DNA of 64,000 bases from a virus (taxonomy: Duplodnaviria; Heunggongvirae; Uroviricota; Caudoviricetes), in IMG/VR virus record IMGVR_UViG_3300028666_000001, positions 64,001-128,000 of that record. The stretch is one strand, 5' to 3'. Both the position numbers and the translations under genes were made by a program. Under the pieces are notes generated by a model that searched no databases, was not told where the DNA came from, and was given only the letters and a program-made list of their open reading frames with translations. Of this stretch, positions 1-39,485 are shown in pieces (position 1 is the first letter of the stretch; each line of letters opens with the position of its first letter).

Positions 1-2
1 AT

Positions 3-1916
3 GTAGCCTATTGTGAAACTCACCATGTATGGGTTACTGACAATAGAGATTTAAAAGAATATTTGCCAGGGTATAAATTTGATAGTTGGGATAACCATAA
101 TAATGAAACATGTCAGGTTGTTCGTTATCAAGCTGGTAAAGCTGCTTGGGATGAATTGCAGGAGAATGCCAAAAAGCAATTAGAATTATTTAAACGTGAG
201 AGAAAGGAAGAAAAACCCCAACAACTAAAACTACCAGAAGCTCAAGCTTCTTTACATAAACAAGCAGTAGAAGGCTATTGGGTAGCTCCTACCAATTTCA
301 ATGATTATACTGCCAAAGATTTTTATAACATTTTTGAGTATGCCCCATGGAAGCATCTCTTCGGGGGTCCTTTATGGGCTGAAGTAGCTAAGACCATTTA
401 TGAGATGCAGAATACAACAGCTTGGGAAAAGCTTGTAGTATTGATTGACCATTTTCACGATCTTGGACATAATACAGGTAAGCTCTTAGATAAGTTCCCT
501 GAGTGGCATCAATGGTTTAAAAAACTGTTGGATATGAAAGCTCAGAAGAATTCTATTAGATACCTTTTACCTAAAGCTTCTAAACCAGTTCAAAGTCTTG
601 TTACTGAGTATCTTCGAATCCATGGTAAGGATTGGAGAGCAGATGAAAGCCCTAAACAGAAACAAAAGAGTGGTTGGGAAGTTGGTGATGAAGTTTTAGT
701 TACAGAACCTGCAAAGGGTGGACAGTATGTTCCAGGAGTAATTGTAAATATGGTTGATGAGGCTTTATATAAAACTCCCTATGAAGTTAAATATGATGGA
801 ATTATGAGATGGGTAAGACCAGATGAGTTAAAATCTCCTCAGTTTAATGCTTCTTCTTTACGTAGACCATTTAGTAAGAAAGCTAAACTTCCTTCTCGTT
901 TATGGATTGCCCCTGATGGAGTAGAATTTGAGGTTTTTAGTGCAGGACATGGTATGTGGATTAAACAAAATCCTGATATTTTAAAAAAATACAGAATAGA
1001 TACAACTGAACCACAATGGACCCAAGAAAAAATGATAGATGCAGGTTGGGTTCGAGTTTCTGATGAACCTTCTGGAACTGGATTTGTAATAGAAGTTAAG
1101 GATTTAAATAGTATACCAAATTTTGTAGATGATCTTATTGCTAAATATTATCAAAAGGGTGAAACTATTCTAATAGGAGCTAAACAACAATTCATTGAAA
1201 TTACTAATCCTTTCCCTTCTATTCAAAAAGCAGTTAATAAGCAGCTAATGGGTACTCGTGCGTCACTTAAAAAAGCTGATCTTAATGGTCGCACCGTTAA
1301 TGAGATCTTACAGGGTATTCAGTCTTCAGGTGGTGTTACTTATAATCTTTCCCAGGGTAATATGGCTGGAACAGATAATTATTCTGTTTCCATCTATCCA
1401 GATCGCTCAAAGATACTTCCATCAGGAGTTGACTTTGATGAAATTGAGAATTTTATTGTTGCAAATGAAGATTTATTAAATAATGCAAGTAATTCTTTTG
1501 GGGCTTGGACCCATGACGGAAAGGTATATCTTGATGTCGTAGCTACAATTCCAGACCAACAGAAGGCAGTAGATTTAGGTAAACAACACAATCAGATTGC
1601 AATTTGGGATCTTAAGAATAATCGAGAGATTCCTACAGGTGGTACTGGAGAGGTCGTTCGAGCCTTTAGTAAGAAAAGCCTTACTAAAGTGGCTGAGGAA
1701 GAGATCCTACCCCAGGAAGCTCAGAATGAGATCGCTGCAGATTCATCTCCTGTTTATAATATAGCACTAAATAACTATGCTCAGGCCGTTAAAAGAGGCC
1801 ATAGCAAAGATAGAGCACTTGCTTATGCAGTTGAATCAGTAGGTAATCTAGAGAAAATTGATGAAAAGAAGCTTGTAGAATTTATAAATAATTATCTTAC
1901 TGGATTAGTAAAATAA
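3..1916 (+). CDS. Multi-domain putative head-cargo protein, 5'-truncated by the window edge
   Basis: The frame is open from base 3 (VAYCETHHVWVTDNRDLKEY-LPGYKF), so the track start at 63 is not the true start. Contains a GGPLWAEVAK...IDHFHDLGHNTGKLLDK segment, an SH3/Tudor-like segment, one WIxPxG...H...GWxR repeat (~876-1277), a GAW...VYLDV...NQIAIWDL domain (~1278-1690) and K-x-A linkers. Confidence 0.75.
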   Translation, partial: VAYCETHHVWVTDNRDLKEYLPGYKFDSWDNHNNETCQVVRYQAGKAAWDELQENAKKQLELFKRERKEEKPQQLKLPEAQASLHKQAVEGYWVAPTNFNDYTAKDFYNIFEYAPWKHLFGGPLWAEVAKTIYEMQNTTAWEKLVVLIDHFHDLGHNTGKLLDKFPEWHQWFKKLLDMKAQKNSIRYLLPKASKPVQSLVTEYLRIHGKDWRADESPKQKQKSGWEVGDEVLVTEPAKGGQYVPGVIVNMVDEALYKTPYEVKYDGIMRWVRPDELKSPQFNASSLRRPFSKKAKLPSRLWIAPDGVEFEVFSAGHGMWIKQNPDILKKYRIDTTEPQWTQEKMIDAGWVRVSDEPSGTGFVIEVKDLNSIPNFVDDLIAKYYQKGETILIGAKQQFIEITNPFPSIQKAVNKQLMGTRASLKKADLNGRTVNEILQGIQSSGGVTYNLSQGNMAGTDNYSVSIYPDRSKILPSGVDFDEIENFIVANEDLLNNASNSFGAWTHDGKVYLDVVATIPDQQKAVDLGKQHNQIAIWDLKNNREIPTGGTGEVVRAFSKKSLTKVAEEEILPQEAQNEIAADSSPVYNIALNNYAQAVKRGHSKDRALAYAVESVGNLEKIDEKKLVEFINNYLTGLVK

Positions 1917-1919
1917 AGG

Positions 1920-1948
1920 TTGCTAAGTAGATCCAAACGTGGTATACT
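1920..1948 (+). promoter_or_regulatory. sigma70-type promoter TTGCTA-N17-TATACT with extended -10 TG
   Basis: Near-consensus hexamers, 17-nt spacer, directly upstream of deoC. Confidence 0.65.
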
Positions 1949-1953
1949 TAAGT

Positions 1954-2637
1954 ATGGATAATATAGCAGGTATGATAGACCATACGCTTCTAAGACCAGA
2001 TGCCCCATTAGGTAAATACACAGAGATTTGTCGTGAGGCTATTGAGTATAAGTTTGCCAGCGTTTGCGTGAATTCATTTCATGTTCCCCTTATTTCTAAT
2101 CTTTTAAATGCTCACCCAGAAGCTAAGGTTAAGACCTGCTCTGTTATTGCTTTTCCCTTTGGGGCAACAGATATTCATACCAAATCCTTAGAGATTGAAC
2201 GAGCTATCTCAAAGGGAGCCCATGAGCTTGATGCTGTAATCAATATAAGCCTTGTTAAGACAGGTGAATGGAAGCGTCTTAAAGATGAGCTTATGGAGAT
2301 TCGGGAAGCTTCTGATCATCATATTTTAAAGCTCATTCTTGAGGTTGGGGCTTTGACTGATGATGAGATCAAAAGATGTTGTGATTTAGCAGTAGAGACT
2401 AATTTAGATTTTGTCAAAACTTCTACAGGATTCTTTAAAGAGCTTAAGCCAGTAGAAACAGCACGTTATGTAAAGCTAATGAAAGAGAGTGTTAATGGGT
2501 CCAGGGTGAAGGTTAAAGCTTCAGGATGGATTCGAACATTGGCTGATTTCAATATGATGGTGGAGGCTGGAGCCTCTAGAGTCGGTTGCAGTAGATCAGT
2601 CGATATTATAAAAGAATGGAAAGGAGATATAAAATGA
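1954..2637 (+). CDS. deoC: Deoxyribose-phosphate aldolase (DERA)
   Basis: Motifs IDHTLLRPDA, VIAFPFG, GAHELDAVIN, LKLILE, DFVKTSTG, VKASG(W)IR and GASRVGCS. ATG at 1954 preferred over the track GTG at 1939, which overlaps the -10 box. Confidence 0.9.
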   Translation: MDNIAGMIDHTLLRPDAPLGKYTEICREAIEYKFASVCVNSFHVPLISNLLNAHPEAKVKTCSVIAFPFGATDIHTKSLEIERAISKGAHELDAVINISLVKTGEWKRLKDELMEIREASDHHILKLILEVGALTDDEIKRCCDLAVETNLDFVKTSTGFFKELKPVETARYVKLMKESVNGSRVKVKASGWIRTLADFNMMVEAGASRVGCSRSVDIIKEWKGDIK

Positions 2638-3053
2638 GTGATGAAAAAGAATTTGGTTTGACCAGCGTAGGATCAGAAGGTGTAGTAAAGGTTCCAGTTG
2701 ACGCTCCACGAGAACGTACTGAACTTGAGAAAGAAGTTGATGCCGAGATTATTGCTAAAGGCAAAGATGCTGTTAATGATTTTGATGAATCTTCAGCTAT
2801 TACAGTTACACCCAAGAAAAAGCGTGGTAGACCTGCCAAGAAAGTTGCTACTGAAGAAGTAGCTCCTCCAAAAGAATGGTATTGCTCAACTTGCCGAGAG
2901 AATATCAATGATAAGAACGTTATGAAGATTGGTGCTGGGCTTAACCGATGGGCTGTTTTTTGTCCTCAGTGTCAGCGCAGCTTTGGTTTTCAAGATCAAG
3001 CTATGCACGATAAAGTAGCTGATTTTATCAAAAATAACCCTACTGGAAAGTAA
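2634..3053 (+). CDS. Zn-finger protein with AT-hook-like motif
   Basis: ATG at 2634 overlaps the deoC stop (ATGA) and follows AAGGAG. Contains KKKRGRPAKK and CSTC...CPQC. Confidence 0.7.
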   Translation: MSDEKEFGLTSVGSEGVVKVPVDAPRERTELEKEVDAEIIAKGKDAVNDFDESSAITVTPKKKRGRPAKKVATEEVAPPKEWYCSTCRENINDKNVMKIGAGLNRWAVFCPQCQRSFGFQDQAMHDKVADFIKNNPTGK

Positions 3054-3277
3054 TGAAAAGGCGAAAGCCTCAGCCCCGTTGCAAATGTAATCACGCTCGT
3101 AAGAATCATGATCGTGGCTATATAACGATTGATAATAAGATGAATATGATCGATAAGTGGCTTAGATGCGGATATTGCTACGATGAATGTCTTGAATTTG
3201 AGCAGGATAATTTAAAGACACTTGAGGGATTGTATGCGTTCCAAGAACAAAAAGAAAGCTCTACTCTTCCCCTGTAA
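3053..3277 (+). CDS. Small Cys/His metal-binding protein, DNLxxLE family
   Basis: CKCNH...H...CGYC...C followed by DNLKTLE; start overlaps the upstream stop. Confidence 0.65.
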   Translation: MKRRKPQPRCKCNHARKNHDRGYITIDNKMNMIDKWLRCGYCYDECLEFEQDNLKTLEGLYAFQEQKESSTLPL

Positions 3278-3476
3278 TTGTGGGCATTCTAATAAATTAC
3301 ATGCTTGGGCTGGTGTATCGATAGGTGATGAGTGGTGTAACGGTTTTGAACGAAGAGCTAAAACAATTGGTGAATTAAAACTCAAATGGCCTTGTCCTTG
3401 TGAGGCATACGTACCTGATAATTTAAAGTATTTGGAACAATGTCTAAAAAAGAAAGGGAAAGGTAAATTAAAATGA
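3234..3476 (+). CDS. Small Cys/His metal-binding protein, DNLxxLE family
   Basis: ATG at 3234 after GAGGGA. CNCGH...H...C...CPC followed by DNLKYLE. Confidence 0.65.
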   Translation: MRSKNKKKALLFPCNCGHSNKLHAWAGVSIGDEWCNGFERRAKTIGELKLKWPCPCEAYVPDNLKYLEQCLKKKGKGKLK

Positions 3477-3691
3477 CTACACTTTCTGAGGTATGCCCAA
3501 TGAAAATTTACACTGAGGAACGATATCTATGTACGATTTGTAATCGGAATAGTAATTTTATGTATGTCGTTAAACAAGTAGAATCAATATATTACCTCAT
3601 TGAAATGTGCCCAAAATGTAATAAGCATGTTGAAGATGTACGGGAAATTCCTAGCAGAGCTGCTAAGGAATATCCTGCTGCTACGAAGTAA
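3473..3691 (+). CDS. Small Zn-ribbon protein
   Basis: CTIC...CPKC; ATGA overlap with the previous gene. Confidence 0.6.
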   Translation: MTTLSEVCPMKIYTEERYLCTICNRNSNFMYVVKQVESIYYLIEMCPKCNKHVEDVREIPSRAAKEYPAATK

Positions 3692-3713
3692 ATCTAAGTT
3701 CCCCCCACAAACT

Positions 3714-6700
3714 ATGAAGAAATCTGCTTCTATCCTTGATTATTCCTATCCATTTCTTGATCCAGCCGTTTGGGATCATGAGAGGAAGCTTTTTGCCTAC
3801 CAGAAAGATTTTATTCTTCGTTTAATCAGTACGATGTATGAAACTTATAGTCTTCAGCAGCCTGAGACTTGGGTAGAGGATATCGTTATCATAGGTTCTT
3901 TGACTACTTCTAAATGGCTGTTCACTTCTGATTTGGATGTTCATATACGTGTCAATTTAGATGCATTTATAGCATCAAATATGCCTGGGAGTACCAAGGA
4001 ACAGGCTTTTGAGAAACTTGATCTTACTCGCAAGGAATTTGATCGTGCTAAAATCTTAGCTCCTATGACACAGCATCCTATTGAATTTTATTTTGAGAGT
4101 ATTGAATTTAAACCAAGTAACACAGCTCTCGTAGGAATCTATTCCTTAGCGCAGGATGCATGGGTTAAAGAGCCTATTACGTTTGATGCTGACTTGGACT
4201 TCGAAGAGTCTAGAAAGGACGTTGTAGCTCAAGCTGAGGCCCTAGCAGAAGAGCTAGATGGCAGCTTGGGTAAGATTAGGCGTGATATAAAGCGTATTGA
4301 TGAACTTGAGGCTGTTATTAAGGCTTGGGACCAGGATAAACAACAACTCTTTTATGCCAAGGTTGAATCTAAACTCAAAGCTATTGAAGCAGAGATTATG
4401 AAGGATCTGCAGCTTAAGCAGGAATTGGTTGATGCTAGACATGCTAACCAGGATGCTACATCTGAAGTTGAAATTAAATTTAAATGGCTTGCACGTTTTG
4501 GTTTCTTTGGAATCCTATCGAATCTGAAGACTCTTATGGAACAGACTGGTGGGCAGGTGACTACACAGGAACTTCCTTTGATTGAAAAGATTATTAGTCA
4601 AGGATCTGTAAAAGAAGCTAGTGATATGAGTTATGCTTATTGGGTAGACCCAGCAGGTAAAATTTATACAGTTAGACCTAATGAATATTCTAAAGATCTT
4701 TTTACCCATAGTGATTGGGTTGTTGCAAATCAGGAATTGCTTAAGGAACAGTATGGTCTAACTTTAGATCTGAATTGTTTTAAGATCATTAAAGAAATGT
4801 ATACCTCTGGGTGGGCTAGAATAGGAGATTCTGGACGAAGTGATATTGGGTATTCAATTTGTGTTTGGGATTTAGGTTCTATTTCAAATGGTGTGGATAA
4901 TGCTCTTGCTCAATTCTATAAAGGTGGAGAATTAATGGTTGAAGGTGAGTCTGACCATAGAACGGTTATTGTGGGTGATCCTTTTCCAAATCTTCAACAA
5001 GCTGTTAATAAAGCTCTACAGAAGAAAAGAATGGGATCTCTTAAAGAAGCTTTCTTAAAAGAAGCTTTTGAAGAAGAGCCTAAAGAATTAGAGACAGACG
5101 TTTGTGTAGATTTTGATAAAACTATTGCACATGAGGCAAAGTATCCAGCTATCGGTGAACCTATTGAAGGAGCTAAGGAATCTTTAGCTAAGCTTCAAGA
5201 TCTAGGCTATAATGTTATCATTTATTCCTGCAGAGGTGATAGTGATGAGGGTATCGAACTAATTACCAAGTGGCTTGATGAACATGATATGCCTTATGAT
5301 TCTATTTTCAGCGGCGATAAACCCTTCTTCAAGTATGTGATTGATGACAAGGCTATCCATTTCGATTCTTGGGATAAAGTAATGCAGAAGGTTGAGAAGT
5401 CTAATAAGACAGCTTCCTCGAATGTTCTTAGGGTTGAACCTTATGGTGGTGGTCCTGAGTTTCCAGTTCTAGTCAATCCTTCTCGTCAACAGGTTGCTCG
5501 TGCATTACCACAAACTGGTTTTGGTCAACTTCGTGTTATCCAAGCCAATAACAATTATATTTGGGATGCAGAAAAGGCTACCCACGATCATGTAATGGAA
5601 TATTTAGCAGAGCAGGGACTTGAGGAGTATGATCATTGTCAGACAGGTTATATTACAGATGCTTCTGACATAGATGAATTTTCCTGGCAAAAAGCAGCTT
5701 CGTTGCACGTTACTGCTAGGATTGCTAATAAATACTGGATAGCACCAGATGGTAAGGAATTTGCTTTTTCCCCATCTGATAGTAATATTGGTGGTCATTT
5801 AGGTTGGATACCAAAAAATAAAGATATTCTTAAGGGATATGGAATAGATTTAAATATTCATGGACCCTATGGGCATCATGCAATAGCAGATGATATGATT
5901 AAAGCGGGTTGGACACGAGTTACAACCGAATCAGATTATGATTTTGCTATGGAGGTCGCTGATATAAACAATCTTCCTCCTTATTTGGATAATTTTGTTG
6001 CTAAAAATTATTATGGTGGTGGAGTTGAGATTGATGATTTAGAGGGTAACTACCAGGATATTTCTGATCCATTTCCTAATCTTAGAAAAGCTATTTATCA
6101 AGCAAAAAGATTAAGACAGCAACCAATTGCAGCTTCTTTGAAAATAGAAGCTGATTATGAACATGCTTATTGGATAGATCCTAATGGTAAAACCTTTCAA
6201 GTAAGAGGTGAGGGTGTTACTGGTGTTGATATAGATGAGGGTAAAGCTGATACACATTTTAAATGGGTCCAAAAAAATAGAGAAATGTTGATAAAAGATT
6301 ATGGATTTAAACCTGTTACAAATCAATGGACAAGTGATCGTCTTACTTCAAATGATCTTATGGCAGCTGGATGGATTAGAATCGGGGATAGTTCTGGTGG
6401 TTCAGAATGGGGTGTTACTCTTAAAAGTTTAAGCCATGTACCTACCTCAGTAGATAGTTTACTTGCTCAGTTTGTTCCTGAAGGTGCTCAAATTACAATT
6501 GAAGAAGATACTAGATGGGAAAATCATGTCGCTATTATATGGCCTGTTAAATCCGTCCAACAAGCTGTTAATCAGGCATTGCAACAAAAAAGATTACAAC
6601 CTGTATCTAAAGCTTTCTCAAAGAAAGAGATTACAGCTCAAACTAAGAAAGTTAAACAAGGTGATTACTCCTGTCTCATGGCTTTAGTTCCTCATGATCT

Positions 6701-9700
6701 GGCCCAGGAAATTGTTGCTTGGGGAGTACGCAACGTTCCTGATGAGGAACTATATTTAGATGAAGATGGGAATTTGGGACGTGAGCTTGAATCTCATATT
6801 ACAATTAAGTATGGTCTATTGACCAATAATGCTAAACATGTTCGACGTTCTTTTAATGATGCAAAGCCATTCCATGCTAAACTTGGAAAGGTACGACACT
6901 TTCAGCCCCCTGAACTTCCTTTTGATGTTCTTACTGTAGAAATTATTAGTGACGATCTACAGGAAGCTAATGAGAAAGTATGTGATAAATTTGAATGCGC
7001 TAAGGGTCTTGTATCTGATGAGTATAAACCCCATATTACAATAGCCTATATGAAGCGTGATACAGCTAAGGAGTATGTTGGAGCTGATGAATTTGAAGGT
7101 AAAGAGGTTGAACTTGATACTGTGATCTTCAGTCCTCATAAGGGCAATCGAACCTATTTCAGTCTTTCACAGGATAAAGAGAGTTCTTTTATTTTACAGG
7201 AGATTAATAAAGTTGCATATCCTGCTGGTAATTGGGCTGAGTCTGCTTGGATTTCTCCAACTGGTGAAGTTGAGGAATTCGAGGGGGATAGTCACGTAGA
7301 TATGATTTTTGATTTGCTTGATGATGATAGAAAATATGATAGTGAAGATGTTCTTTCTTTAGCTATCAATAAGGGTTGGACTCGTTTTGGAGAAATGGGT
7401 GGTGGAGGAGAAACTGGAGCTAATGTTCAAAGCCTCAGAAATATAAATCCTGCTGTTTTTAATCATGCCCTGAAGTATACAGGTCAAGGTAAGGAAATGG
7501 TTGTATCAGATCTTTCAGGTGCATATGTTAAAATGCCCGTAGATGAATTTGTATTGGGTCAGGGGGCAGTTAATAAAGCTTTGATGGGGGCAACAAAGAC
7601 AGCAGCTCAAGTGCCTTTTTCAGGTGAAGCTTGGAGAGGAATGTCTATGGGTGGTTTTCCTCCAGGAACTACAGCTGCCGATGTCATACGATATGAAGCT
7701 GAAGAACTAGGTAATGACAATAAAGTAGATCCAAATATTTTACCTCTATTAGAAAAACGTCCAGCCTCTGATCTTATTTGGGTAACGAAGAGTAAAGAAG
7801 ATGCTACAAAATATGGTAATCCACAACCTGTTAAAATTGATCCTAACTCTACTGTTATTGGTCAAGATGAGGAAGGTGGTTATTTAATTTTAAAATCTGC
7901 CGAGTTTCTTCCTTCTATGGCAGAGAATGCTCCTACTAATCGTTGGCAGTTTGCTCAAGGTGGAGATGATGTTGAGATTGCTTTACAGCCAGATAGTGTA
8001 TCGGATGATGCTACAGAAGCAGAACCATGCACAACAGGTAAACCACGTACCAAAGATATGTGGAGACAGTTCATGTCCATCTTTCAAAATGCCTTCTCAA
8101 AGAAAGAAAATGTAACTATAAAATCCTATGATAAAGAATTAGAACAGGAAGAGAAGGATGCATTAGGTGAAGATCAAACTCTTCTCGAATATTCTAAGGG
8201 TTTCTATGATCCAGCAAAGCATGACTTTCCACATAATACAACTTGGGATTCATTGACGCAAGATGGAGAACCAAGTAAACCTACCTCAGTAACTTATTCT
8301 CCTCAGATATCTAATGACGACAATTTGGATCAGAATTCTCCTGGTGGATTTCCCCGTCGTTTCATGGGTAAGCCAAAAGGTGAATGGTTCTCTAATGAGG
8401 GTGAGGTTAATCACACTCTTATTGATATGCTTAAGAATCGTCAGGCATCTCTTGATAGTATGACAAGAGATATTACTGCTGGTTATGGTCCTGGGTATTG
8501 GATAGATCCCAATGGTAAAGCTTATCAGGTAAGAGGTGAAGATGATCTTGTTACACACTATGACTGGATTAATAGAAATAAAGAACTTTTATTAAATGAG
8601 TATGGAATTGAAATTGATACTCCAAATGCCGATTTTAATTCTAAAGCTTTAATAAAAAAGGGTTGGACACGAGTTGGAGATTCTAGTTTTGGGTACATTA
8701 GCATTGAGACTCCAGATTTAACACATCTTCCAGCTGGTCCTTTAGATTCTATTTTAAGTACCATTAATAATGGTAAGGGAATTATTGTAGAGGATATGAA
8801 CGGTGGACATGTAGAGATAAATTGGATTGACGAAGTGTATAATGGGAATATTCAAAAGGCAGTTAATAAAGCTCTTCAGAGAAAACGTTTGGGTAAACAA
8901 GCTTCAATCGAAGAAGTTAATGGTATTAAGGTTTTGGTAAATCCTAGTCCTGAAGAGGTAAAAGGTTTCGTAAAAAAATTTAGATCTCTTCGTGCTTTGG
9001 TTGATCCGCAGTCAGGAGATATCTTTGTTTGGAATGCATATCAATCAGAGCATAATACAATGATTCGTTATTATGGGTTAGATATTGATTGGGAAAATGA
9101 TGATGGTACTTATATTCGTCATGTTACTATTCCAAATGATATTAATTACTTATTTGATACTCAGGCTGAGATTAAGAATCGTAAGGGTACAATGAAGCAA
9201 GCAGGTTCCAATAATGTAAGTTACTGGATAGATCCAAAGGGAGAAGTTTACTTAGTTCCAGAAACTACTCACGATATTTGGATGGTTAATGAAAATCAAT
9301 TACTGAAAGATAAATATGGAATAGATACAACCAAAGAAGATTGGAGAAATCTTATTGAACGAGGCTGGACAAGGGTTAATGCATCCAAGGATAGTGTGAG
9401 TTTGGAGGTAGCTGATATTCATAATGTTCCATCTTTTATAAAGAATTTTATTAAAGAATATATTGGTGAAACCCCTAAAGTATTTATAGAAGATAGAATG
9501 AATAATAGTGTAACAATACCATTCTTTAGAGGCTCTATTCCAAAGAGTGCAGGTGATCAAAGTGCTTCAGTTCCTGATTATTTAATTGATGAGTGGAAGA
9601 CTGATCAATTGCATGATGATATTTCTGAAGAGCCATATGTCAATCATGATCAAAGAGATTATCCATATGGGATGCATGATAGTCCAGAAAACACAGGCTA

Positions 9701-9863
9701 TAATATTGGTTGGGCTAAAGACAATCAGCCAGCCGTTGTTCGTTTAGATACCCTTGAAAATCCAGCTTACAGATTAGATCCCTTTGGAATCGGGGAATAT
9801 AATGTAACGTGGTATACTTCATTGCCAGCTAGTGACGGTATAGAGAAAACCAACCCTGAGTAA
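3714..9863 (+). CDS. Giant multi-domain (polyvalent/polyprotein-like) protein with nucleotidyltransferase, HAD, 2H phosphoesterase, ART-like and repeated unknown domains
   Basis: Likely start MKKSAS at 3714; the track start at 3600 overlaps the upstream gene. NTase IIGSLTT...SDLDVH; HAD VDFDKT...YSCR...IDDK; 2H HITIKY and HITIAY; ART-like AWRG...WVT...A..YG; six WxxPxG repeats; two VLVNPS domains. Confidence 0.85.
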   Translation: MKKSASILDYSYPFLDPAVWDHERKLFAYQKDFILRLISTMYETYSLQQPETWVEDIVIIGSLTTSKWLFTSDLDVHIRVNLDAFIASNMPGSTKEQAFEKLDLTRKEFDRAKILAPMTQHPIEFYFESIEFKPSNTALVGIYSLAQDAWVKEPITFDADLDFEESRKDVVAQAEALAEELDGSLGKIRRDIKRIDELEAVIKAWDQDKQQLFYAKVESKLKAIEAEIMKDLQLKQELVDARHANQDATSEVEIKFKWLARFGFFGILSNLKTLMEQTGGQVTTQELPLIEKIISQGSVKEASDMSYAYWVDPAGKIYTVRPNEYSKDLFTHSDWVVANQELLKEQYGLTLDLNCFKIIKEMYTSGWARIGDSGRSDIGYSICVWDLGSISNGVDNALAQFYKGGELMVEGESDHRTVIVGDPFPNLQQAVNKALQKKRMGSLKEAFLKEAFEEEPKELETDVCVDFDKTIAHEAKYPAIGEPIEGAKESLAKLQDLGYNVIIYSCRGDSDEGIELITKWLDEHDMPYDSIFSGDKPFFKYVIDDKAIHFDSWDKVMQKVEKSNKTASSNVLRVEPYGGGPEFPVLVNPSRQQVARALPQTGFGQLRVIQANNNYIWDAEKATHDHVMEYLAEQGLEEYDHCQTGYITDASDIDEFSWQKAASLHVTARIANKYWIAPDGKEFAFSPSDSNIGGHLGWIPKNKDILKGYGIDLNIHGPYGHHAIADDMIKAGWTRVTTESDYDFAMEVADINNLPPYLDNFVAKNYYGGGVEIDDLEGNYQDISDPFPNLRKAIYQAKRLRQQPIAASLKIEADYEHAYWIDPNGKTFQVRGEGVTGVDIDEGKADTHFKWVQKNREMLIKDYGFKPVTNQWTSDRLTSNDLMAAGWIRIGDSSGGSEWGVTLKSLSHVPTSVDSLLAQFVPEGAQITIEEDTRWENHVAIIWPVKSVQQAVNQALQQKRLQPVSKAFSKKEITAQTKKVKQGDYSCLMALVPHDLAQEIVAWGVRNVPDEELYLDEDGNLGRELESHITIKYGLLTNNAKHVRRSFNDAKPFHAKLGKVRHFQPPELPFDVLTVEIISDDLQEANEKVCDKFECAKGLVSDEYKPHITIAYMKRDTAKEYVGADEFEGKEVELDTVIFSPHKGNRTYFSLSQDKESSFILQEINKVAYPAGNWAESAWISPTGEVEEFEGDSHVDMIFDLLDDDRKYDSEDVLSLAINKGWTRFGEMGGGGETGANVQSLRNINPAVFNHALKYTGQGKEMVVSDLSGAYVKMPVDEFVLGQGAVNKALMGATKTAAQVPFSGEAWRGMSMGGFPPGTTAADVIRYEAEELGNDNKVDPNILPLLEKRPASDLIWVTKSKEDATKYGNPQPVKIDPNSTVIGQDEEGGYLILKSAEFLPSMAENAPTNRWQFAQGGDDVEIALQPDSVSDDATEAEPCTTGKPRTKDMWRQFMSIFQNAFSKKENVTIKSYDKELEQEEKDALGEDQTLLEYSKGFYDPAKHDFPHNTTWDSLTQDGEPSKPTSVTYSPQISNDDNLDQNSPGGFPRRFMGKPKGEWFSNEGEVNHTLIDMLKNRQASLDSMTRDITAGYGPGYWIDPNGKAYQVRGEDDLVTHYDWINRNKELLLNEYGIEIDTPNADFNSKALIKKGWTRVGDSSFGYISIETPDLTHLPAGPLDSILSTINNGKGIIVEDMNGGHVEINWIDEVYNGNIQKAVNKALQRKRLGKQASIEEVNGIKVLVNPSPEEVKGFVKKFRSLRALVDPQSGDIFVWNAYQSEHNTMIRYYGLDIDWENDDGTYIRHVTIPNDINYLFDTQAEIKNRKGTMKQAGSNNVSYWIDPKGEVYLVPETTHDIWMVNENQLLKDKYGIDTTKEDWRNLIERGWTRVNASKDSVSLEVADIHNVPSFIKNFIKEYIGETPKVFIEDRMNNSVTIPFFRGSIPKSAGDQSASVPDYLIDEWKTDQLHDDISEEPYVNHDQRDYPYGMHDSPENTGYNIGWAKDNQPAVVRLDTLENPAYRLDPFGIGEYNVTWYTSLPASDGIEKTNPE

Positions 9864-9864
9864 G

Positions 9865-9937
9865 TAACAATGTTTAAGTAGCTAAGAAAGTATAATATTT
9901 CCGTGTTAATATAGGAGTCCTACGCTCTAACGATTTT
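9865..9937 (+). promoter_or_regulatory. Conserved late-gene upstream element, copy 1
   Basis: TAACAAT...AAGTATAATATTTCCGTGTTAATATAGGAG..CTACG.TC. The 30-bp core (9888-9917) is identical to the copies at 23089 and 53726. Confidence 0.75.
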
Positions 9938-9963
9938 TATAATGCTTTATGGAGTAGGTAAGA

Positions 9964-10491
9964 ATGTCTTCTGAGAAACAAAAAGAACTGCAAAGAAAAT
10001 GGTACTTAGATAATAAAGAGAGATTGTTATCTAAGGCTAAAGAACTGTATAAAGATAACCCAGAGATCCTTATTGCTGATAAGAAACGTAAAAAGCATAA
10101 ATACAATACTGATCCTGAATATAGAGCTAAAGAGATTTTAAGAAAAACAATCTATTATAAACAGAGATATAATACTGATTTAAATTTTAGATTGATTTGT
10201 AATTTGAGAATTAGATTAACCCAAGCTATAAAAAAGAATTTTAAAGTTGGATCAGCCGTTAGAGATTTAGGATGTTCTGTTGATTTTTTAAAACAATATC
10301 TTGAGTCGAAGTTTCTTCCAGGAATGTCTTGGGATAATTATGGTTCATATTGGGAAATTGATCATATATTTCCTTTGTCACAATTTAACTTAGACGATAA
10401 AGAGCAATTTTTAAAAGCAGTACATTATACTAATCTTCAGTCATTAACAGTTTCAGATAATAGAAGTAAAGGAATCAAACTAGACTATTAG
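9964..10491 (+). CDS. HNH endonuclease (homing-endonuclease-like)
   Basis: Basic, repetitive N-terminus. C-terminal LGCSVDFLKQYLESKF...WEIDHIFPLS...HYTNLQSL...N is a typical viral HNH pattern. Confidence 0.8.
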   Translation: MSSEKQKELQRKWYLDNKERLLSKAKELYKDNPEILIADKKRKKHKYNTDPEYRAKEILRKTIYYKQRYNTDLNFRLICNLRIRLTQAIKKNFKVGSAVRDLGCSVDFLKQYLESKFLPGMSWDNYGSYWEIDHIFPLSQFNLDDKEQFLKAVHYTNLQSLTVSDNRSKGIKLDY

Positions 10492-10502
10492 GAGCCTCCA
10501 CC

Positions 10503-12122
10503 ATGCCAACCAATCCAAAATTTAATGAAGCTAAAGAACGAATAATTAACGCTGCTCAGAGAGTAGCAGGAGCATATCTTCTGTCAAAGTATGGTTCTGC
10601 TCATCTGTCAGGAGAGCCAAAGGTTGAGCTGACCGCTACAGAAGGTCCTACAAGCTCTAGTTTTGTATTTAAAGGCCAGATTACCTGTTATGCAGCAGAT
10701 AGCTTGTTAAATCAAGTAGGAGTCAATATGACAATTAATGAGAATGATATTGAAGTTACTTCTGAAGATATCCAAGCAAATATTTCTGGTGCATTAAATG
10801 CAGCAGAAGAGCATTCTGAAGTAGTCGTAGCTTCCTTGGATTCTTTCAATTTGACTGACACTGGTTCTAAATACCTCCAGGTTAGCCATTCAGCTCTACA
10901 AGATGCCAATTTGGGCATAGTAGGTAAGAATGAATATGCAGCCTCTAAAGATAAATCAGCACTTTTACAAGGTATTGTTAAAGATGCTATGCTTGAAACC
11001 CCTATTACTTTTACAGGTGAATTTAAAGAACCAACAATTGAGAAAGCTGCACGATTAAAAGATTGTTGGGAATGTGGTAAAGAATATGATGACAAGAATA
11101 AGTACCAAGATGATTTATGTGATAAATGCCGTGGAGCTAAACCTAAGAAAGAAGCATCTCTTGTTGAACCAAAAATACAGCCCAAGAAATCTTCATGGAT
11201 TACAGCCGATTTTATGAGTGAACCATCAGCAGATCCATTTACAGAGTTTACCGCTATCGTTCAAAAACAATATGGCGTAACACCTGCAGATATGGGTATT
11301 GATGGACCAGAAGCTATGCCTATGGATGAAGCCCCACAGGAATTAGCAGATCGTCTAGGTATGAAATATGATATGGACAAAATTGCTGATAGTGATGTGA
11401 ATATCGGTAATCCAATGGGTGTTAAAGATGATATGCCAATGGCTCGTGCAACTGATTCAATGGCTCAAATGGCTCAATTAGAATCCCAGACACTTTCAGC
11501 TTCCAAAGAGAAGCTTACGAATGAAGCAGCTAATGCTCTCATCTCTATGCTTCATGGTATGGGTTATGGTACAGCAAAAATTGCTGAAGTAACTGATTCT
11601 AAAGATGGTTTAGATTTTATGGCAGCTGTTGATGATGGTGGATCTGTCAAAGCTGTCAGTATTCCAGTAGCAATCAAAGAGTCCAAAGTAGTTCTTCCAA
11701 AGAAAGCTCTTGTTTCAACTCTTATCTCCAAAGGTCTGGATATTCGAGCTAAACTCTCTGAACAATTTGACTTAGAAGCATTAGAGAAGATTGCAGCTAT
11801 TGAGGAAAAGATTGCTTATGAAACTAAAGAAGCTGAAGACATTCTTGCAGAAAGACCAGTTAAAAAAGAAGCTTCAGGAAGCACAAATGAAATGTTTCTT
11901 GGAGAAACTGATGTACTTGAAGTTCAAAAACATTTACTACCTAATCATGAAGAAATGAAGAAGGGTGATAAAATTTCAGACGGTGCAGATCAATGGGAAC
12001 TTGTTGATACAGATAGTAATCAAAATGATAAAAATGAAGATTCAGCTTCTATTTGGAAATTTAAGAAATGTGCTCCTCCAAAGGCCGACGAAAAAGAACC
12101 AGAAACAAAAATTAAAGCATAA
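10503..12122 (+). CDS. Acidic putative head-associated protein with Zn-finger insert and K-x-A linkers
   Basis: RBS AGGAG; CWECGK...CDKC; KKEAS twice, KAAR, KIAD. Confidence 0.7.
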   Translation: MPTNPKFNEAKERIINAAQRVAGAYLLSKYGSAHLSGEPKVELTATEGPTSSSFVFKGQITCYAADSLLNQVGVNMTINENDIEVTSEDIQANISGALNAAEEHSEVVVASLDSFNLTDTGSKYLQVSHSALQDANLGIVGKNEYAASKDKSALLQGIVKDAMLETPITFTGEFKEPTIEKAARLKDCWECGKEYDDKNKYQDDLCDKCRGAKPKKEASLVEPKIQPKKSSWITADFMSEPSADPFTEFTAIVQKQYGVTPADMGIDGPEAMPMDEAPQELADRLGMKYDMDKIADSDVNIGNPMGVKDDMPMARATDSMAQMAQLESQTLSASKEKLTNEAANALISMLHGMGYGTAKIAEVTDSKDGLDFMAAVDDGGSVKAVSIPVAIKESKVVLPKKALVSTLISKGLDIRAKLSEQFDLEALEKIAAIEEKIAYETKEAEDILAERPVKKEASGSTNEMFLGETDVLEVQKHLLPNHEEMKKGDKISDGADQWELVDTDSNQNDKNEDSASIWKFKKCAPPKADEKEPETKIKA

Positions 12123-12148: not shown

Positions 12149-15100
12149 ATGAATTCATTCTTCAAAGACGTAATCTCTCACCTATTAAAAAATGCTTTCG
12201 AAGGGCATACCAAGTTCTCTGTTGCTGATGATACAGCAGTAGGGGCTAATCCTGTTCGTTCAATTTCTCTTGATGCTGTACCAGTCAATAATGATGTATT
12301 GATATCATTATCCTGGGATGGTGGGGAGAAACTGTTTGAAAAGACTTTAAGTGAACAGGAAGCATCTCATCAATTTGATTTAATTTCAACCGATCTTGCC
12401 GAAGTAGCAGCTCTTACTAAGCAAGGTGAATATGATTCAGCTAAAGCTCTTATGAAGAAATTGGGCCAGAAGTATGCTGAAAATACAGGTGATATTGTAG
12501 ATACAAATTTGCCAAAACTCCATAATACACAAGCTTCTAAAGAAGATTCTCGCCTTTGGAAACAAGCCAAAATTACCATGCAGAATCTATGGTTCTCCAC
12601 AAATGACGAGCTATTAGAATATCAGCAAAAGCAGAAAGGTGCAAAACCAGGAAATGATCAGGATCACATTCCTCTTTGGGATAAAACCAAGAAAGAGAAA
12701 TCTCCCGAGTCCATGGATAAGGGTCTTGCTCCAGCCTCATTATCCTACGAAGATGTTGAGAATCAGAAAGAAAGAGAACATGAGGATATGCAGAAGCATA
12801 TTGATGAGAAAATTAAGACTGAGCTAGAATCAGCTCTTCAGGAAAAAGCTGCCAGCGTATTTGGTCCTGATCAAATTGAATTAGTTAAAGTTCTTCGAAA
12901 GAATGGACGTAATTGGGATGAAATTAAGAAAATCCTAATTAAGGATTTCAATTTTGATAAAGAAGCAACTACAATTTTTATAGATGAGCAACGTGAAAGT
13001 ATGGACCCAACTGGTATTGATGTAGAGCCAGTTAAAGAAGAACCAAAAGGTCCAGAAGAGAAATCTCCTCTTACTCCCCCAGAAGACTTAGTTTCACCTG
13101 AAACTCATGATAAATTGCTGCAGGATCATGAAGATAAAAAAAAAGATGAAACTCCCCTAGAGAATAAAGAACCTTCCTTTACTCCCAAAGATGTTATGGA
13201 CATTCCAGAGGATGACGAGATTGTAGATCAATCTTCTCTATCCAATGAGATTGCTCGTGCAGATAATGATGATATTCATAAAGTAGCTGCTAAAAGATGG
13301 ACAGGAGATATGGATAAAGATCTCCAAGTCTTGATGCCCCATATTGTTGCTGATGGTGTTGCTCCTGATCGAGAATTATCAGATTGGTTAGTTAATTATG
13401 CTAAAGCAATCTATAAGAATAACGCTGATTGGGGCAAAATGATTGCTAAAGAAGACAATAATTCCAGAGATACTTTGAAGTCGTTTATGGAACATTGGAT
13501 GAAGGCAAAAGCAGCAAATCCAAATTTGCGTCCTGAATTACATACACAATCCTCGTTAAAAACAGCAGCACCTTCTGATTTAAATCCTCTCCAGGAACCT
13601 ATCGAAGAAAGACCTACTGCAGAAACTAGCACACCTCAACAAGATCTTGTTCCAATGGGGAAGAAACCATTGGATCATAATGCCCCTCAGAAAGGGGATA
13701 GAGTATTTGTGTCTTCAGATATGACCGATGAGAAAGCGGGATTTGAAGCTACATATATTTCTAATTATCAAGCAAAGGGTGTTGATTTCTCTATTGTTGA
13801 GACAGATGCTGGAGACTTGATTGATATCGAGACTAACCGTGTTGTTAAAACGTCTGAAGGAACATCTGGTGCTCAAGATACTGAGCCAGTAGCAGAACCT
13901 CAGATTGAAAAACCACAGGAAACTGATATTCCAGTAACTCCTAAGATGGATGATTTTCATACTAGTGAGCAAGAATCTGCTTTGACAATTAAAGCTGAGG
14001 TTGAAGCTCTTTTAAAAGAAGTTGAGGGAATGGCAAAGACTTCTTATATTTTTATTAAACAGGGCTTAGAGAAACATGCTGATGACTCAGCATTTGAGGG
14101 TAATGGGTGGTGCAGAGTTTGGGTTCAGGAAGATGAACTTGCATCTGATAACCGATATCCTGAGATTTTAAAATTAGCTGATGAAAATTCTAAAATTGCT
14201 GCTCTTAAAGATCTTGCACGAGAACTTGCACATGAGGCTCTAAGACTTGCAGATAGTGCATCTTCTAAGGTTGGAGTTCAATCTTGGTTCGAATCATTAA
14301 AGCCTTCTGATCACGATAGGATTGATTGGGTTAAACTAGCCAATCCTCAGACAGAAGAACAGGAAATGGCTGAATTTAATAAAGATATGGGATATGAATC
14401 GTCCCAGAATAAAATGTTTATGAAAAAGGGTGAACTTCCACCCGAACATATTTGTGAACAATGCAAGAAACCTATGGGGTATCAAGGTTTTTTAGGACCA
14501 GTTTGTGAGAAGTGTGTTCGTAAGAACCACAAAAAGGTAACTGGATCTGACTTTGAGAAAGGAATTTCACAGAATAAGACATCTGATGAAACACTTCCAG
14601 CTGCTAAATCAGTTAAAAAGAATCCAAGTTTAAAGGATAAAGATATTGATCCTTATAAGCATCATTCTGATTTGGAATGGGAAACTGGCGATCCTTGCAA
14701 ACTCTGTAAGTCTCCTATTGATGATAATTGCCAGTGTACAAATGCTGAGTGTGAATTCCATAGATGTGGTCAAGCTTATGCTGCTACTAAGCCAGAAGGC
14801 TCAGAACCAGATCAAGTTGATCTAATTATGGCTTATGAAACTGGCGAATTAGATGATGCTGGTATTCTTAAGCTTTTCAGTATGCTGATTAAGAGTGGTG
14901 ATGCCTGGAGCTTACAGGGCTCTTATGGGCGTACCGCTAAAGCTCTTATTGAAGCTGGATACATTAATGATCGTGGTACTATTACAAAAGATGTAGTAGA
15001 TACTGAGGTTGTTCCAGAACAAAAGATGCTTTCTAAACAGTATGCTTTTAATAAGGTTACAAAAAAAGCTAATCAAACATCAAAAGAAGATTATATAGCT

Positions 15101-20663: not shown

Positions 20664-20962
20664 TGATTAATCATTCCCATTCATCCAATGTCGTATGGAA
20701 TATGAATTATTCAGGTGTTGTAAGTGCTGGAGTCTATACAACTACTTCAAATAGTAGTGTCTCGAATAATGTAACGTTTGAGTATATTATTAAACGTTGC
20801 CGAGAATGTAAACATGCTCATGCACAGGAAGGTGCAAGAGGCTGTTACGATGTATGTGATGCTTCAATTGCTTTTGTGGTTAATTGCCATTGCAAAGAGC
20901 ATGTACCAGAGGATAATCTGGAGTACTTGGAATATCTAATTAAGAAAAAGGAACCTCTATGA
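20663..20962 (+). CDS. Small Cys/His metal-binding protein, DNLxxLE family
   Basis: CRECKHAH...C..C...CHC followed by DNLEYLE. Confidence 0.65.
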   Translation: MINHSHSSNVVWNMNYSGVVSAGVYTTTSNSSVSNNVTFEYIIKRCRECKHAHAQEGARGCYDVCDASIAFVVNCHCKEHVPEDNLEYLEYLIKKKEPL

Positions 20963-21645
20963 AGAAAACTATCGCTGCTTTACTTACTGCCTTATTGCTG
21001 TTACCTGCTTGTGCCTTTAATGTTAATACTCCACATATTTCCAGTCTATCCAATAGAATGGAAGATTCAACTGTTTTAGTGCATCTGAAAGTTCATATGA
21101 CATCTATAAATAAAGAAACTGGCAAAAAGAAAGAAAGATCTGGATGGGGAACATGCAGTGGTGTTTACATCAAAGAGAATATTATCTTATCTGCAGCTCA
21201 TTGTGTTGAGGTTCCAGAGGGAATGGACCTAAAGCAAATTTGGGTCAGGAAAGGTGATCAATCAGAACAAGCTATTGTTGTTAAGCTTGATGGTCCTGCT
21301 GACTTAGTTCTATTATATACACCTATGACAGGTACTCCAGTTAGCTTATCCAATAGAGTTGTTCGTGGACAAGATTGTTGGATTATTGGAAATCCTCTGG
21401 GTCTTACAGATATATTGACAAAAGGTATTGTAAGCAAAATTCATTTTGCTGTACCTGAAGAGAAAGCATCATTTATAATTGTAGATGCTGTAGCTCTTCC
21501 TGGAAATTCTGGTGGGGCTGTTGTGGATTCTCAAGGTAGATTAATTGGAATTTTGACAAGATCTACATCTCTGTTTGGTGGATTTGGTGCAAGTGGTCTT
21601 GGTATTGCTGTTGATTTACATACGATTAGAGAATTTTTAAAATAA
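20959..21645 (+). CDS. Trypsin-like (S1) serine protease with lipoprotein signal peptide
   Basis: SAAHC (His), ADLVLL (Asp), PGNSGG (Ser); N-terminus MKK...LLLLPAC lipobox. Confidence 0.88.
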   Translation: MKKTIAALLTALLLLPACAFNVNTPHISSLSNRMEDSTVLVHLKVHMTSINKETGKKKERSGWGTCSGVYIKENIILSAAHCVEVPEGMDLKQIWVRKGDQSEQAIVVKLDGPADLVLLYTPMTGTPVSLSNRVVRGQDCWIIGNPLGLTDILTKGIVSKIHFAVPEEKASFIIVDAVALPGNSGGAVVDSQGRLIGILTRSTSLFGGFGASGLGIAVDLHTIREFLK

Positions 21646-28354: not shown

Positions 28355-28426
28355 GTAATTAGATACTAGATCTAGTTGTAAACATGATTGGTCGTGAGAC
28401 TGACATGTATTTTAAAGGAGAAATTT

Positions 28427-39183: not shown

Positions 39184-39195
39184 TAGGATAATTTT

Positions 39196-39474: not shown

Positions 39475-39485
39475 GGAGTGCTACA

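What the first reader, a model, noticed from the sequence alone, without database searches (positions are those of the whole stretch)
876..9550. Uncharacterised ~130-aa domain expanded to seven diverged copies in two cargo proteins
Seen in sequence: consensus W(I/V)xPxG-x(6-20)-H-xx-W...(L/M)xxGWxR(V/I/F)...P-xx-(L/V)D...AVNKAL. One copy at ~876-1277 and six in the giant ORF at ~4623, 5720, 6156, 7216, 8480 and 9200, each flanked by K-x-A-type linkers. Invariant W, P, G, H, GW and R with variable loops suggest a conserved binding or active site with diversified specificity. I cannot assign it to a characterised family. Inference: since neighbouring domains act on nucleotides, it could be a nucleotide-signal binder or an inhibitor family tuned to different host targets.
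Basis: partly seen in the sequence, partly recalled or inferred. Interest (0 to 1): 0.8.

Follow-up and report, generated by a model that had tools for sequence, protein, structure and literature searches.

The report
Unannotated repeated domain in phage cargo polyproteins
Two giant proteins encoded beside the head genes of an uncultured 192-kb phage carry seven old, diverged copies of a roughly 130-residue domain that matches no curated family or solved structure; it recurs in about 300 protein clusters of similar phage "cargo" proteins, and its function is still only inferred.

Summary
Seven copies of one ~120-147-aa domain lie at the stated places: one in the 1026-aa protein ending at window 1916, six in the 2049-aa protein at 3714-9863. 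Leave-one-out profile E-values run from 7e-9 to 4e-30, and there are no further copies in the 192-kb genome. The same invariant residues hold across 187 instances from other phages (W6, P9, G11, H25, W28, G62-W63-x-R65; 91-98%).

The family is real but rare: 307 clusters among 1.84 billion representatives. Members are almost all giant multi-enzyme head-module proteins with 1-10 copies, plus a few pure arrays and stand-alone genes. Its commonest partners are 2H/Acb1 phosphoesterases.

Nothing known matches. There is no Pfam, PHROG or PDB-sequence hit, no GenBank-phage hit, and no convincing fold match. The best fold match is the anti-CRISPR AcrVA3 at Z 4.9, covering the N-terminal half only.

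The copies are ancient paralogues, each with its own orthologues in other phages. Each is bracketed by K-x-A-S or FSKK linkers that also occur in the portal, scaffold-like and capsid proteins, so they are probably head-protease cut sites.

My best reading (0.35) is a non-catalytic binding module, cut free in the capsid and ejected with the DNA. Its Trp/Arg patch sits on the polar face of the sheet. The main rivals are a cargo-loading handle or a purely structural spacer.

The scan's sequence look-up found this domain on no other DNA.

The parts
888..1262 (+). Domain copy A, in the 1026-aa protein (P0001 residues 296-420)
   Evidence: HMM domain E 9e-48; leave-one-out E 9.7e-29; AF2 model pLDDT 89
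4626..5033 (+). Domain copy 1 of the giant protein (P0002 343-478)
   Evidence: its orthologue P0011 305-440 lies at tree distance 0.27
5721..6125 (+). Domain copy 2 (P0002 708-842)
6156..6599 (+). Domain copy 3 (P0002 853-1000), with the longest loop insert; directly precedes the 2H domain
7233..7598 (+). Domain copy 4 (P0002 1212-1333). It is the most diverged copy and lacks H25 and W28. It follows the 2H domain without a K-x-A-S linker.
   Evidence: (E 6.8e-9)
8484..8894 (+). Domain copy 5 (P0002 1629-1765), closest to the family consensus
   Evidence: AF2 model with a 63-sequence alignment, pLDDT 90.8
9210..9569 (+). Domain copy 6 (P0002 1871-1990), with a degenerate C-terminal helix
   Evidence: phrog_1615 touches its N-terminal hairpin
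3..1916 (+). 3' two-thirds of the 1026-aa cargo protein. The gene starts 1165 bases before the window, at L008:12836.
3714..9863 (+). 2049-aa polyvalent/cargo polyprotein: Pol-beta NTase-like N-domain, HAD-type phosphatase, 2H phosphoesterase, six copies of the domain and two copies of a second ~90-aa repeat
6612..7214 (+). 2H (Acb1/LigT-like) phosphoesterase domain with two H-x-T motifs, flanked by copies 3 and 4
   Evidence: Pfam PF13563 E 6e-8; local profile
1275..1682 (+). DUF3293-like / phrog_17808 domain directly after copy A. This [copy]-linker-[domain] unit recurs in 19 of the 29 relatives and related-provirus proteins that carry the domain.

Best explanation
What is shown. The seven copies are true paralogues of one autonomously folding alpha/beta domain.
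- The N-terminal half (beta-hairpin, three short helices, beta-hairpin; about 65 aa) carries every near-invariant residue.
- The C-terminal half (helix, beta-hairpin, helices) ends in a basic helix, ..QKAVNKAL..KR.
- The family is confined to giant multi-enzyme 'polyvalent/cargo' proteins in the head-gene clusters of uncultured large phages, plus a few arrays and stand-alone genes.
- Each paralogue has its own orthologues in other phages.

What is inferred, step 1. The K-x-A-S and FSKK linkers that bracket every module are cut by the prohead protease inside the capsid. Each copy would then become a free, acidic protein of about 15 kDa that leaves the virion with the DNA.

What is inferred, step 2. 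The domain is non-catalytic and works by binding.
- W6, W63 and R65 lie on the otherwise polar and variable face of the sheet. H25 and W28 sit at the start of the first helix; that they lie near this patch is assumed, not measured.
- Such an exposed aromatic-basic platform usually holds a base, a nucleotide or a peptide.
- Multiplying the copies raises the dose of a stoichiometric binder relative to the single-copy enzymes.

Most speculative step. The patch is the same in nearly all paralogues and phages, and the usual partners are 2H/Acb1, LigD 3'-phosphoesterase, HAD phosphatase and nucleotidyltransferase. The ligand is therefore more likely a nucleotide or nucleic-acid-type molecule common to all hosts than a host-specific defence protein.
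For: - Family and copies.
- 307 related clusters with 1-10 copies per protein. Pure arrays exist (P0006: 7 HMM matches, 5 of them full copies, in a complete 1009-aa gene), as do stand-alone proteins of 128-153 aa.
- Conservation in 187 instances: W6 98%, P9 98%, G11 94%, H25 96%, W28 91%, G62 94%, W63 96%, R65 96%.
- Distant members keep only the N-terminal half.
- Strand periodicity puts W6, W63 and R65 on the polar face.
- No conserved acidic or nucleophilic residue, so the pattern is not enzyme-like.
- The domains are acidic: median pI 5.0.
- Each copy's nearest tree neighbour is in another phage's protein (distance 0.27-1.0), while paralogues are at least 1.8 away.
- Partner domains in 95 relatives: 2H/Acb1 in 29, then LMW phosphatase, ART-PolyVal, LigD_N, SAM lyase, NTase and HAD.
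- Head-module location: terminase, portal, protease and major capsid protein lie downstream on the same strand.
- Linkers are enriched (8 against 2.1 expected). They also occur at the portal N-terminus, in the scaffold-like 1057-aa protein and at the capsid protein N-terminus, and in a related provirus.
- The polyvalent-protein concept comes from Iyer et al. 2017 (PMC5512222).
Against: - No ligand, partner or cleavage has been shown; every functional step is inference.
- I could not read model coordinates, so exposure of the patch rests on sequence periodicity alone. A Trp-Arg-Trp ladder on a sheet face can be purely structural.
- A virion holds few molecules, so a stoichiometric sponge would be weak compared with the 2H enzyme carried in the same polyprotein.
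- Guilt by association with 2H is soft. A copy lies within 60 aa before a 2H domain in 13 of 35 cases and after it in 12 of 35, and copies are dense in these proteins anyway.
- No fold match to known nucleotide sponges or nucleic-acid-binding folds turned up.
Confidence: 0.35

Rival explanations
1. Cargo 'header' or loading handle. The domain binds a conserved phage component (scaffold/core, portal or inner capsid wall), or binds itself. In this way it brings or holds each cargo cassette in the prohead. The head protease then cuts it off, much as T4's capsid-targeting sequence is removed by gp21, and it has no role in the host.
For: - The domain is found almost only in head-module polyproteins.
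- In the giant protein every cargo module except the N-terminal NTase is preceded by a copy.
- The [copy]-ASLK linker-[DUF3293-like] unit occurs in 19 of the 29 proteins with that domain. It sits in the small protein here but in the large polyprotein of the related provirus.
- Universal conservation of one patch fits a conserved phage partner.
- The scan has noted short conserved 'header' peptides before cargo modules in other phages (unchecked leads).
Against: - One handle per polyprotein should be enough, yet there are 6-10 copies, pure arrays and tandem triplets.
- Stand-alone genes exist with no cargo attached.
- Each paralogue has been kept as a distinct lineage across phages, which is not expected of redundant handles.
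- No partner was identified.
Confidence: 0.25
2. Inert structural spacer. The domain is a stable, soluble fold that separates enzyme modules and presents the protease sites. Its conserved Trp, His and Arg residues only build a small core or a Trp-Arg ladder.
For: - The near-invariant residues are mostly W, P and G, typical of fold determinants.
- There is no detectable similarity to any binding or catalytic family.
- The domain is interspersed between enzymes.
Against: - Arrays without enzymes and stand-alone genes exist.
- H25 and R65 are 96% conserved across instances that mostly share under 45% identity.
- Simple low-complexity linkers would be cheaper spacers.
- Paralogue lineages have been kept over long times.
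Confidence: 0.15
3. Small enzyme. H25 and R65 (with N32) would form a minimal active site, for example for a metal-independent phosphotransfer or RNase-type reaction. The domain would be amplified in the same way that ART domains are amplified in some polyvalent proteins.
For: - His and Arg are near-invariant.
- The neighbouring domains act on nucleotides.
- Up to 12 ART copies in one polyvalent protein are on record (PMC5512222).
Against: - No conserved acidic residue, second His, Ser, Cys or Lys is present.
- Copy 4 and its orthologues lack H25 and W28 yet are conserved.
- There is no fold match to any hydrolase or transferase above noise.
Confidence: 0.08
4. Distant relative of the anti-CRISPR AcrVA3. 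The N-terminal half would share AcrVA3's fold and act, like it, on DNA or on a CRISPR-Cas step.
For: - AcrVA3 (9kja) is the top VIA-align hit in three searches with two independent models: Z 4.7-4.9, rmsd 2.7-3.2 A, 55-57 of its 69 residues aligned, 16-23% identity.
- The match covers exactly the conserved N-terminal half.
- With the copy-5 model it stands 0.6-1.0 Z unit above the next row.
- AcrIIA15's C-terminal domain also appears, at Z 3.4.
- The AcrVA3 paper reports a new fold and dsDNA cleavage (PMC13001698).
Against: - Z below 5 is under the tool's own noise level; its stated typical best Z without a true match is 7-8.
- Profiles of the whole domain and of the N-terminal half do not find AcrVA3 among PDB sequences even at E 10.
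- Foldseek gives no significant hit.
- AcrVA3's reported key residues (R50, D60, N76, K93) could not be mapped here.
- Our domain is acidic.
Confidence: 0.07

Closest known systems
Polyvalent proteins of phages and conjugative elements, and their uncharacterised 'LPD' domains (Iyer, Burroughs, Anand, de Souza, Aravind 2017, PMC5512222)
   Same: These are giant proteins that string together unrelated enzymes (here NTase-like, HAD phosphatase and 2H phosphoesterase; ART-PolyVal, SAM lyase and LMW phosphatase in relatives). They are encoded with head genes and are presumed to be delivered with the DNA. They also contain recurrent domains of unknown function.
   Different: This domain matches none of the LPD or other polyvalent-protein families held in Pfam. 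The two proteins lack the MuF or zincin-peptidase hub domains of the 2017 set. The domain reaches 6-10 copies per protein. The family has no tblastn hit in 50,697 GenBank phage records. LPDs that were never put into Pfam could not be checked.
T4 internal proteins (IPI-III, Alt) and phiKZ-type inner-body proteins; from general knowledge, not tested here
   Same: These are proteins loaded into the prohead, trimmed by the head protease at short motifs and ejected with the DNA. Some are stoichiometric anti-restriction factors that are needed in many copies.
   Different: There is no sequence or fold relation. Here the candidate cut motif is K-x-A-S / FSKK rather than L/I-x-E or S/A/G-x-E. The repeated unit is a folded 130-aa domain inside polyproteins, not a 10-residue targeting peptide.
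Anti-CRISPR AcrVA3 (PDB 9KJA; PMC13001698)
   Same: AcrVA3 is the best structural neighbour of the conserved N-terminal half (Z 4.9, rmsd 2.7 A, 57 aligned residues, 23% identity). Both are small phage-borne counter-defence-context proteins with a fold described as new.
   Different: The similarity is below the noise level of the search and is invisible to sequence profiles. AcrVA3 is a single stand-alone protein. Our domain has an extra C-terminal half and a different conserved motif set.
Phage nucleotide-signal sponges (Tad1, Tad2, Acb2); from general knowledge
   Same: Aromatic and basic residues are typical of such sites.
   Different: No fold or sequence match was found. Oligomerisation, which those sponges need, remains unknown here. 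Those sponges are expressed after entry, not packaged.

Membership tests
Polyvalent proteins (Iyer et al. 2017) | Several domains of disparate biochemical activity in one polypeptide | tested here: met
   2H phosphoesterase (Pfam E 6e-8), HAD/PNK-type phosphatase (phrog_1238 E 3e-20) and an NTase-like N-domain (phrog_36119; GS..DxD motif). Relatives add ART-PolyVal, SAM lyase, LMWPc and Acb1.
Polyvalent proteins (Iyer et al. 2017) | Encoded in a phage head/packaging (or conjugation) neighbourhood | tested here: met
   Terminase, portal, protease and major capsid protein lie directly downstream on the same strand.
Polyvalent proteins (Iyer et al. 2017) | Typical hub domains (MuF/portal fusion, zincin-like metallopeptidase) | tested here: not met
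   No such Pfam or PHROG hit in either protein. DUF6782 and M78 peptidases occur in only 3 of 69 relatives. This feature is frequent in the family, not obligatory.
Polyvalent proteins (Iyer et al. 2017) | Delivery into the host with the DNA | not testable with these tools
   Needs virion proteomics or infection assays.
Pfam LPD families (large polyvalent-protein-associated domains) | Significant match of the repeat to an LPD profile | tested here: not met
   No Pfam family at E up to 10 for the 7 copies, nor at E up to 1 for 52 N-terminal halves. LPDs that are absent from Pfam could not be compared.
AcrVA3 family | Shared fold | tested here: inconclusive
   Top VIA hit in 2 of 3 searches, second in the other: Z 4.7-4.9, 55-57 residues, N-terminal half only. 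This is below the tool's noise level.
AcrVA3 family | Detectable sequence relationship | tested here: not met
   Profiles A3 and A4 against all PDB sequences do not list 9KJA at E up to 10.
AcrVA3 family | Anti-Cas12 or dsDNA-cleaving activity | not testable with these tools
   Needs a biochemical assay.
Gelsolin / ADF-H fold | Shared fold | tested here: inconclusive
   Many gelsolin-type rows at Z 3-4.9 with 72-80 aligned residues. No Foldseek support.
Nucleotide-signal sponges (Tad1/Tad2/Acb2) | Fold or sequence match to a solved sponge | tested here: inconclusive
   None appears in the Foldseek or VIA lists. By the tools' own rule, absence from the lists does not exclude the family.

The most novel reading that the evidence does not exclude
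The domain is a new fold of virion-delivered, non-enzymatic counter-defence effector: a base, nucleotide or nucleic-acid-binding platform, possibly sharing ancestry with AcrVA3. Phages would multiply it inside cleavable polyproteins to set its dose, so that many copies are released in the host at the moment of DNA entry.
Probability: 0.2. Interest if true: 0.8.

Novelty: new variant of a known kind. Interest (0 to 1): 0.5.

Why it matters
Packaged 'polyvalent' proteins are thought to be a phage's first strike against host immunity, but most of their non-enzymatic parts are unexplained. This domain is one of the most repeated parts of such proteins in a set of large uncultured phages, and it has no annotation anywhere.

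It folds with high predicted confidence (pLDDT about 90) into a shape with no clear solved counterpart. It also carries a sharply conserved Trp/His/Arg motif.

If it is a binder, it would add a new class of pre-loaded anti-defence factor and a new ligand-binding fold. If it is a loading handle, it would show how modular cargo is recruited into capsids, which could be used to package foreign proteins. Either way it gives a profile for annotating about 300 protein clusters and a small, easily expressed target for structural and binding work.

Tried and rejected
- Pfam and PHROGs scans of the single copies, of 52 N-terminal halves and of small relatives gave nothing significant. phrog_1615 touches only the hairpin of copy 6.
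- PDB sequence search with two profiles gave only chance-level hits: SBDS at E 0.38 and heparinase III at E 0.13.
- Foldseek against PDB, BFVD and Swiss-Prot models gave no hit at E <= 0.001. AFDB clusters returned only unnamed small proteins, the best at E 1.6e-6.
The Atlas feature search gave no usable hit.
- The cytidine-deaminase and DYW rows were rejected: TM is about 0.2-0.3 and no zinc motif is present.
- Homodimer test (complex prediction, two copies of copy 5): no verdict, score 0.00, so it counts neither for nor against.
- tblastn of copy 5 against GenBank phages found no match. megablast of window 1-12000 found none.
- The genome-contig scan found no relative. The word-index protein search found one weak hit.
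With the single copy it found one related provirus.
- Neighbourhoods of the stand-alone genes are phage-like but uninformative.
- Self-cleaving module idea rejected: the same linkers occur between modules that are not this domain and in proteins that lack it.
- DNA-binding filler idea judged unlikely: median pI 5.0 and net charge -6.
- The supplements of the 2017 paper with the LPD alignments are not held. A literature search for DUF3293 returned nothing.

Full report
**Setting.** The window is bases 64001-128000 of a 192,085-bp IMG/VR virus record with direct terminal repeats. Its first 16 kb hold large same-strand ORFs, followed by terminase (16620-18269), portal (18924-20663), a protease (20959-21645), a 1057-aa scaffold-like protein with a head-protease-like N-domain (24500-27673) and the major capsid protein (28388-29383). 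The finding concerns two of these ORFs:
- the 3' part of a 1026-aa protein, which ends at 1916 and starts upstream at L008:12836;
- a giant ORF at 3600-9863, whose true start is most likely the ATG at 3714, because relatives begin MKK..SILDY.

**Observation.**
- A regex for W[IV]xPxG together with G[WF]xR[VIF] finds seven units, at P0001 residue 301 and at P0002 residues 348, 713, 858, 1217, 1634 and 1876.
- Aligned (A1), they share 23-37% identity with invariant W6, P9, G11, G53-W54-x-R56.
- An HMM of the seven finds exactly these seven in a six-frame scan of the window. The next best E-value is 2.5. The whole genome holds no others.
- Leave-one-out HMMs give E 6.8e-9 (copy 4) to 3.7e-30. Pairwise BLASTP reaches 5e-26.

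**The family.** The profile was searched against 1.84 billion cluster representatives and found 307 proteins at E <= 1e-3, 101 at E <= 1e-10 and 45 at E <= 1e-30.
- Mapping the domain on the best 150 shows mostly proteins of 600-2650 aa with 1-10 copies. There are tandem pairs and triplets, near-pure arrays (P0006, a complete 1009-aa gene with 7 HMM matches, 5 of them full copies) and a few stand-alone proteins of 128-153 aa.
- In 187 full-length instances the conserved set is W6 98%, P9 98%, G11 94%, H25 96%, W28 91%, N32 71%, L36 76%, Y40 76%, G62 94%, W63 96%, R65 96% and P86 82%.
- More distant members match only profile positions 3-68, so the N-terminal half is the conserved core.
- One related IMG/VR provirus has the same two-gene layout: 754 aa with one copy and 1789 aa with three copies.
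- GenBank phages give no tblastn hit, and the species-representative prokaryote genomes give no close relative.
- The scan's own index holds this domain on no other DNA.

**No known family.**
- Pfam and PHROGs give nothing for the copies, for 52 N-terminal halves or for small relatives.
- Profiles A3 (63 diverse copies) and A4 (52 N-terminal halves) find nothing real among PDB sequences.
- Two AlphaFold2 models are confident: copy A with 7 sequences at pLDDT 89.3, and copy 5 with 63 sequences at pLDDT 90.8. They agree on strand-strand, three helices, strand-strand, helix, strand-strand, helices.
- Foldseek finds no significant PDB, BFVD or Swiss-Prot-model match. It finds only unnamed small proteins among AFDB clusters, the best at E 1.6e-6.
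- The exhaustive VIA-align search gives no Z of 5 or more.
- Its best row with the copy-5 model is the anti-CRISPR AcrVA3 (9kja): Z 4.9, rmsd 2.7 A, 57 aligned residues, 23% identity. The match covers just the N-terminal half.
Gelsolin-type domains follow at Z 3-4.9.
- By the tool's own calibration these values are within noise, so I treat AcrVA3 as a lead only. Its paper describes a new fold with dsDNA-cleaving activity (PMC13001698).

**Context in the proteins.** The giant protein reads as follows:
- NTase-like domain (GS..DxD)
- copy 1
- HAD-type phosphatase (DxDxT)
- a ~90-aa domain X
- copy 2
- copy 3
- 2H phosphoesterase (two HxT motifs)
- copy 4
- an unassigned region
- copy 5
- domain X again
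- copy 6
- a C-terminal tail

In 95 relatives the commonest partner is 2H/Acb1 (29 proteins). Others are LMW phosphatase (4), ART-PolyVal (3), LigD 3'-phosphoesterase (2), DUF6782 peptidase (2), SAM lyase, NTase and HAD. These are hallmarks of the polyvalent proteins of Iyer et al. 2017 (PMC5512222).

Adjacency to 2H is frequent but not exclusive: 13 of 35 before and 12 of 35 after. A tighter unit is [copy]-(A-S-L-K type linker)-[DUF3293-like domain], found in 19 of the 29 proteins that carry that domain. It lies in the 1026-aa protein here but in the large polyprotein of the related provirus.

**Age of the copies.** In a maximum-likelihood tree of 108 instances, every copy of this phage has its nearest neighbour in another phage's protein (distance 0.27-1.0). 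The closest paralogue in the same protein is at least 1.8 away. The copies are therefore ancient and individually maintained, not recent duplicates or products of concerted evolution.

**Linkers.** K/Q-x-A-S/G occurs 8 times in the giant protein, against 2.1 +/- 1.4 in shuffles. It falls at domain boundaries, together with (A/P/R)FSKK motifs. Similar motifs stand at the portal N-terminus (GKTASMDKSAGS), in the scaffold-like protein (SKKASL, EASLKE, KKFASV, KRASR) and near the capsid protein N-terminus (VEASM). The related provirus has them too. I infer, but have not shown, that they are prohead-protease sites. If so, each copy would be freed as a protein of about 15 kDa. Other agents of this scan reached similar inferences for other phages' polyproteins; I use those only as leads.

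**What the domain may do.** The domain is acidic: median pI 5.0 and charge -6. That argues against a general DNA-coating role. No acidic, Ser, Cys, Lys or second His position is conserved, and copy 4 with its orthologues lacks H25 and W28. Both points argue against an enzyme.

Strand periodicity is informative. Positions 5, 7, 14, 16, 64, 66, 75, 77 and 79 are 64-99% hydrophobic (all but position 64 at 88% or more). The alternate positions 8, 15, 17, 67, 76, 78 and 80 are polar and variable, and position 13 is mixed. W6, W63 and R65 sit on this second face. This suggests an exposed aromatic-basic platform, but a structural Trp-Arg ladder would look the same, and I could not read coordinates.

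Arrays, stand-alone genes and long-kept paralogue lineages favour a module with its own activity that is needed in dose. Hence my best reading (0.35) is a non-catalytic binder released into the host, with a ligand common to all hosts.

The main rival (0.25) is a cargo-loading or retention handle that is cut off in the capsid. An inert spacer (0.15), a small enzyme (0.08) and an AcrVA3-type effector (0.07) remain possible. A homodimer prediction gave no verdict and is not used.

**Verdict.** The family is real, rare, unannotated and structurally unassigned, and it belongs to a known kind of system (phage polyvalent/cargo polyproteins). I rate it a new variant of a known kind, with interest 0.5.

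Noticed in passing
window 19047-19082 (portal N-terminus), 25229-25246, 25679-25696, 27299-27316 and 27563-27580 (1057-aa scaffold-like protein), 28442-28459 (capsid protein N-terminus): The same K/E-x-A-S motifs that separate modules in the cargo polyproteins also occur in the portal, scaffold-like and major capsid proteins. This fits one head-protease recognition rule for the whole head module. No cleavage has been shown.
   Followed up: partly
window 5409-5705 and 8895-9197: A second repeated domain of about 90 aa occurs twice in the giant protein (VLVNPS...W(D/N)A...H...). BLASTP between the two copies gives E 4e-6. It has no family match. Its 'strand, H-xx-hydrophobic, YG-(L/I)-(D/E)-I' stretch looks a little like part of the main domain's N-terminal half.
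   Followed up: partly
window 1275-1682: A DUF3293-like / phrog_17808 domain of unknown function forms a recurrent unit with a preceding copy and an A-S-L-K linker (19 of 29 proteins). In a related provirus the unit sits in the other polyprotein.
   Followed up: partly
window 20959-21645: Directly after the portal gene lies a 228-aa trypsin-like serine protease (GNSGG motif, phrog_9683). It has a lipoprotein-type signal sequence (LLLLPAC). An apparently exported protease is odd inside a head module.
   Followed up: no
window 1939-2637: A DeoC/LacD-family aldolase gene (Pfam E 3.8e-16) lies between the two cargo polyprotein genes. The related provirus has a 247-aa ORF at the matching place.
   Followed up: no
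window 3600-3713: The giant ORF is open from a TTG at 3600, but relatives start at the equivalent of the ATG at 3714 (MKK.ASILDY). That start itself contains a K-x-A-S motif.
   Followed up: partly
window 12149-16003 and L008:3392-12811: Four more large acidic head-region proteins (933, 870, 1178 and 1284 aa) have zinc-ribbon pairs, low-complexity Ala/Pro/Gly tracts, a DUF7417 domain and scattered A-S-L-K or FSKK motifs, but no copy of the repeated domain.
   Followed up: no
L013 (IMGVR_UViG_3300020123_000589, 39032-55451): A 151-kb provirus record has the same layout: a 754-aa protein with one copy, several small genes, then a 1789-aa NTase-HAD-copy-2H polyprotein with three copies and the same linker types.
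   Followed up: partly
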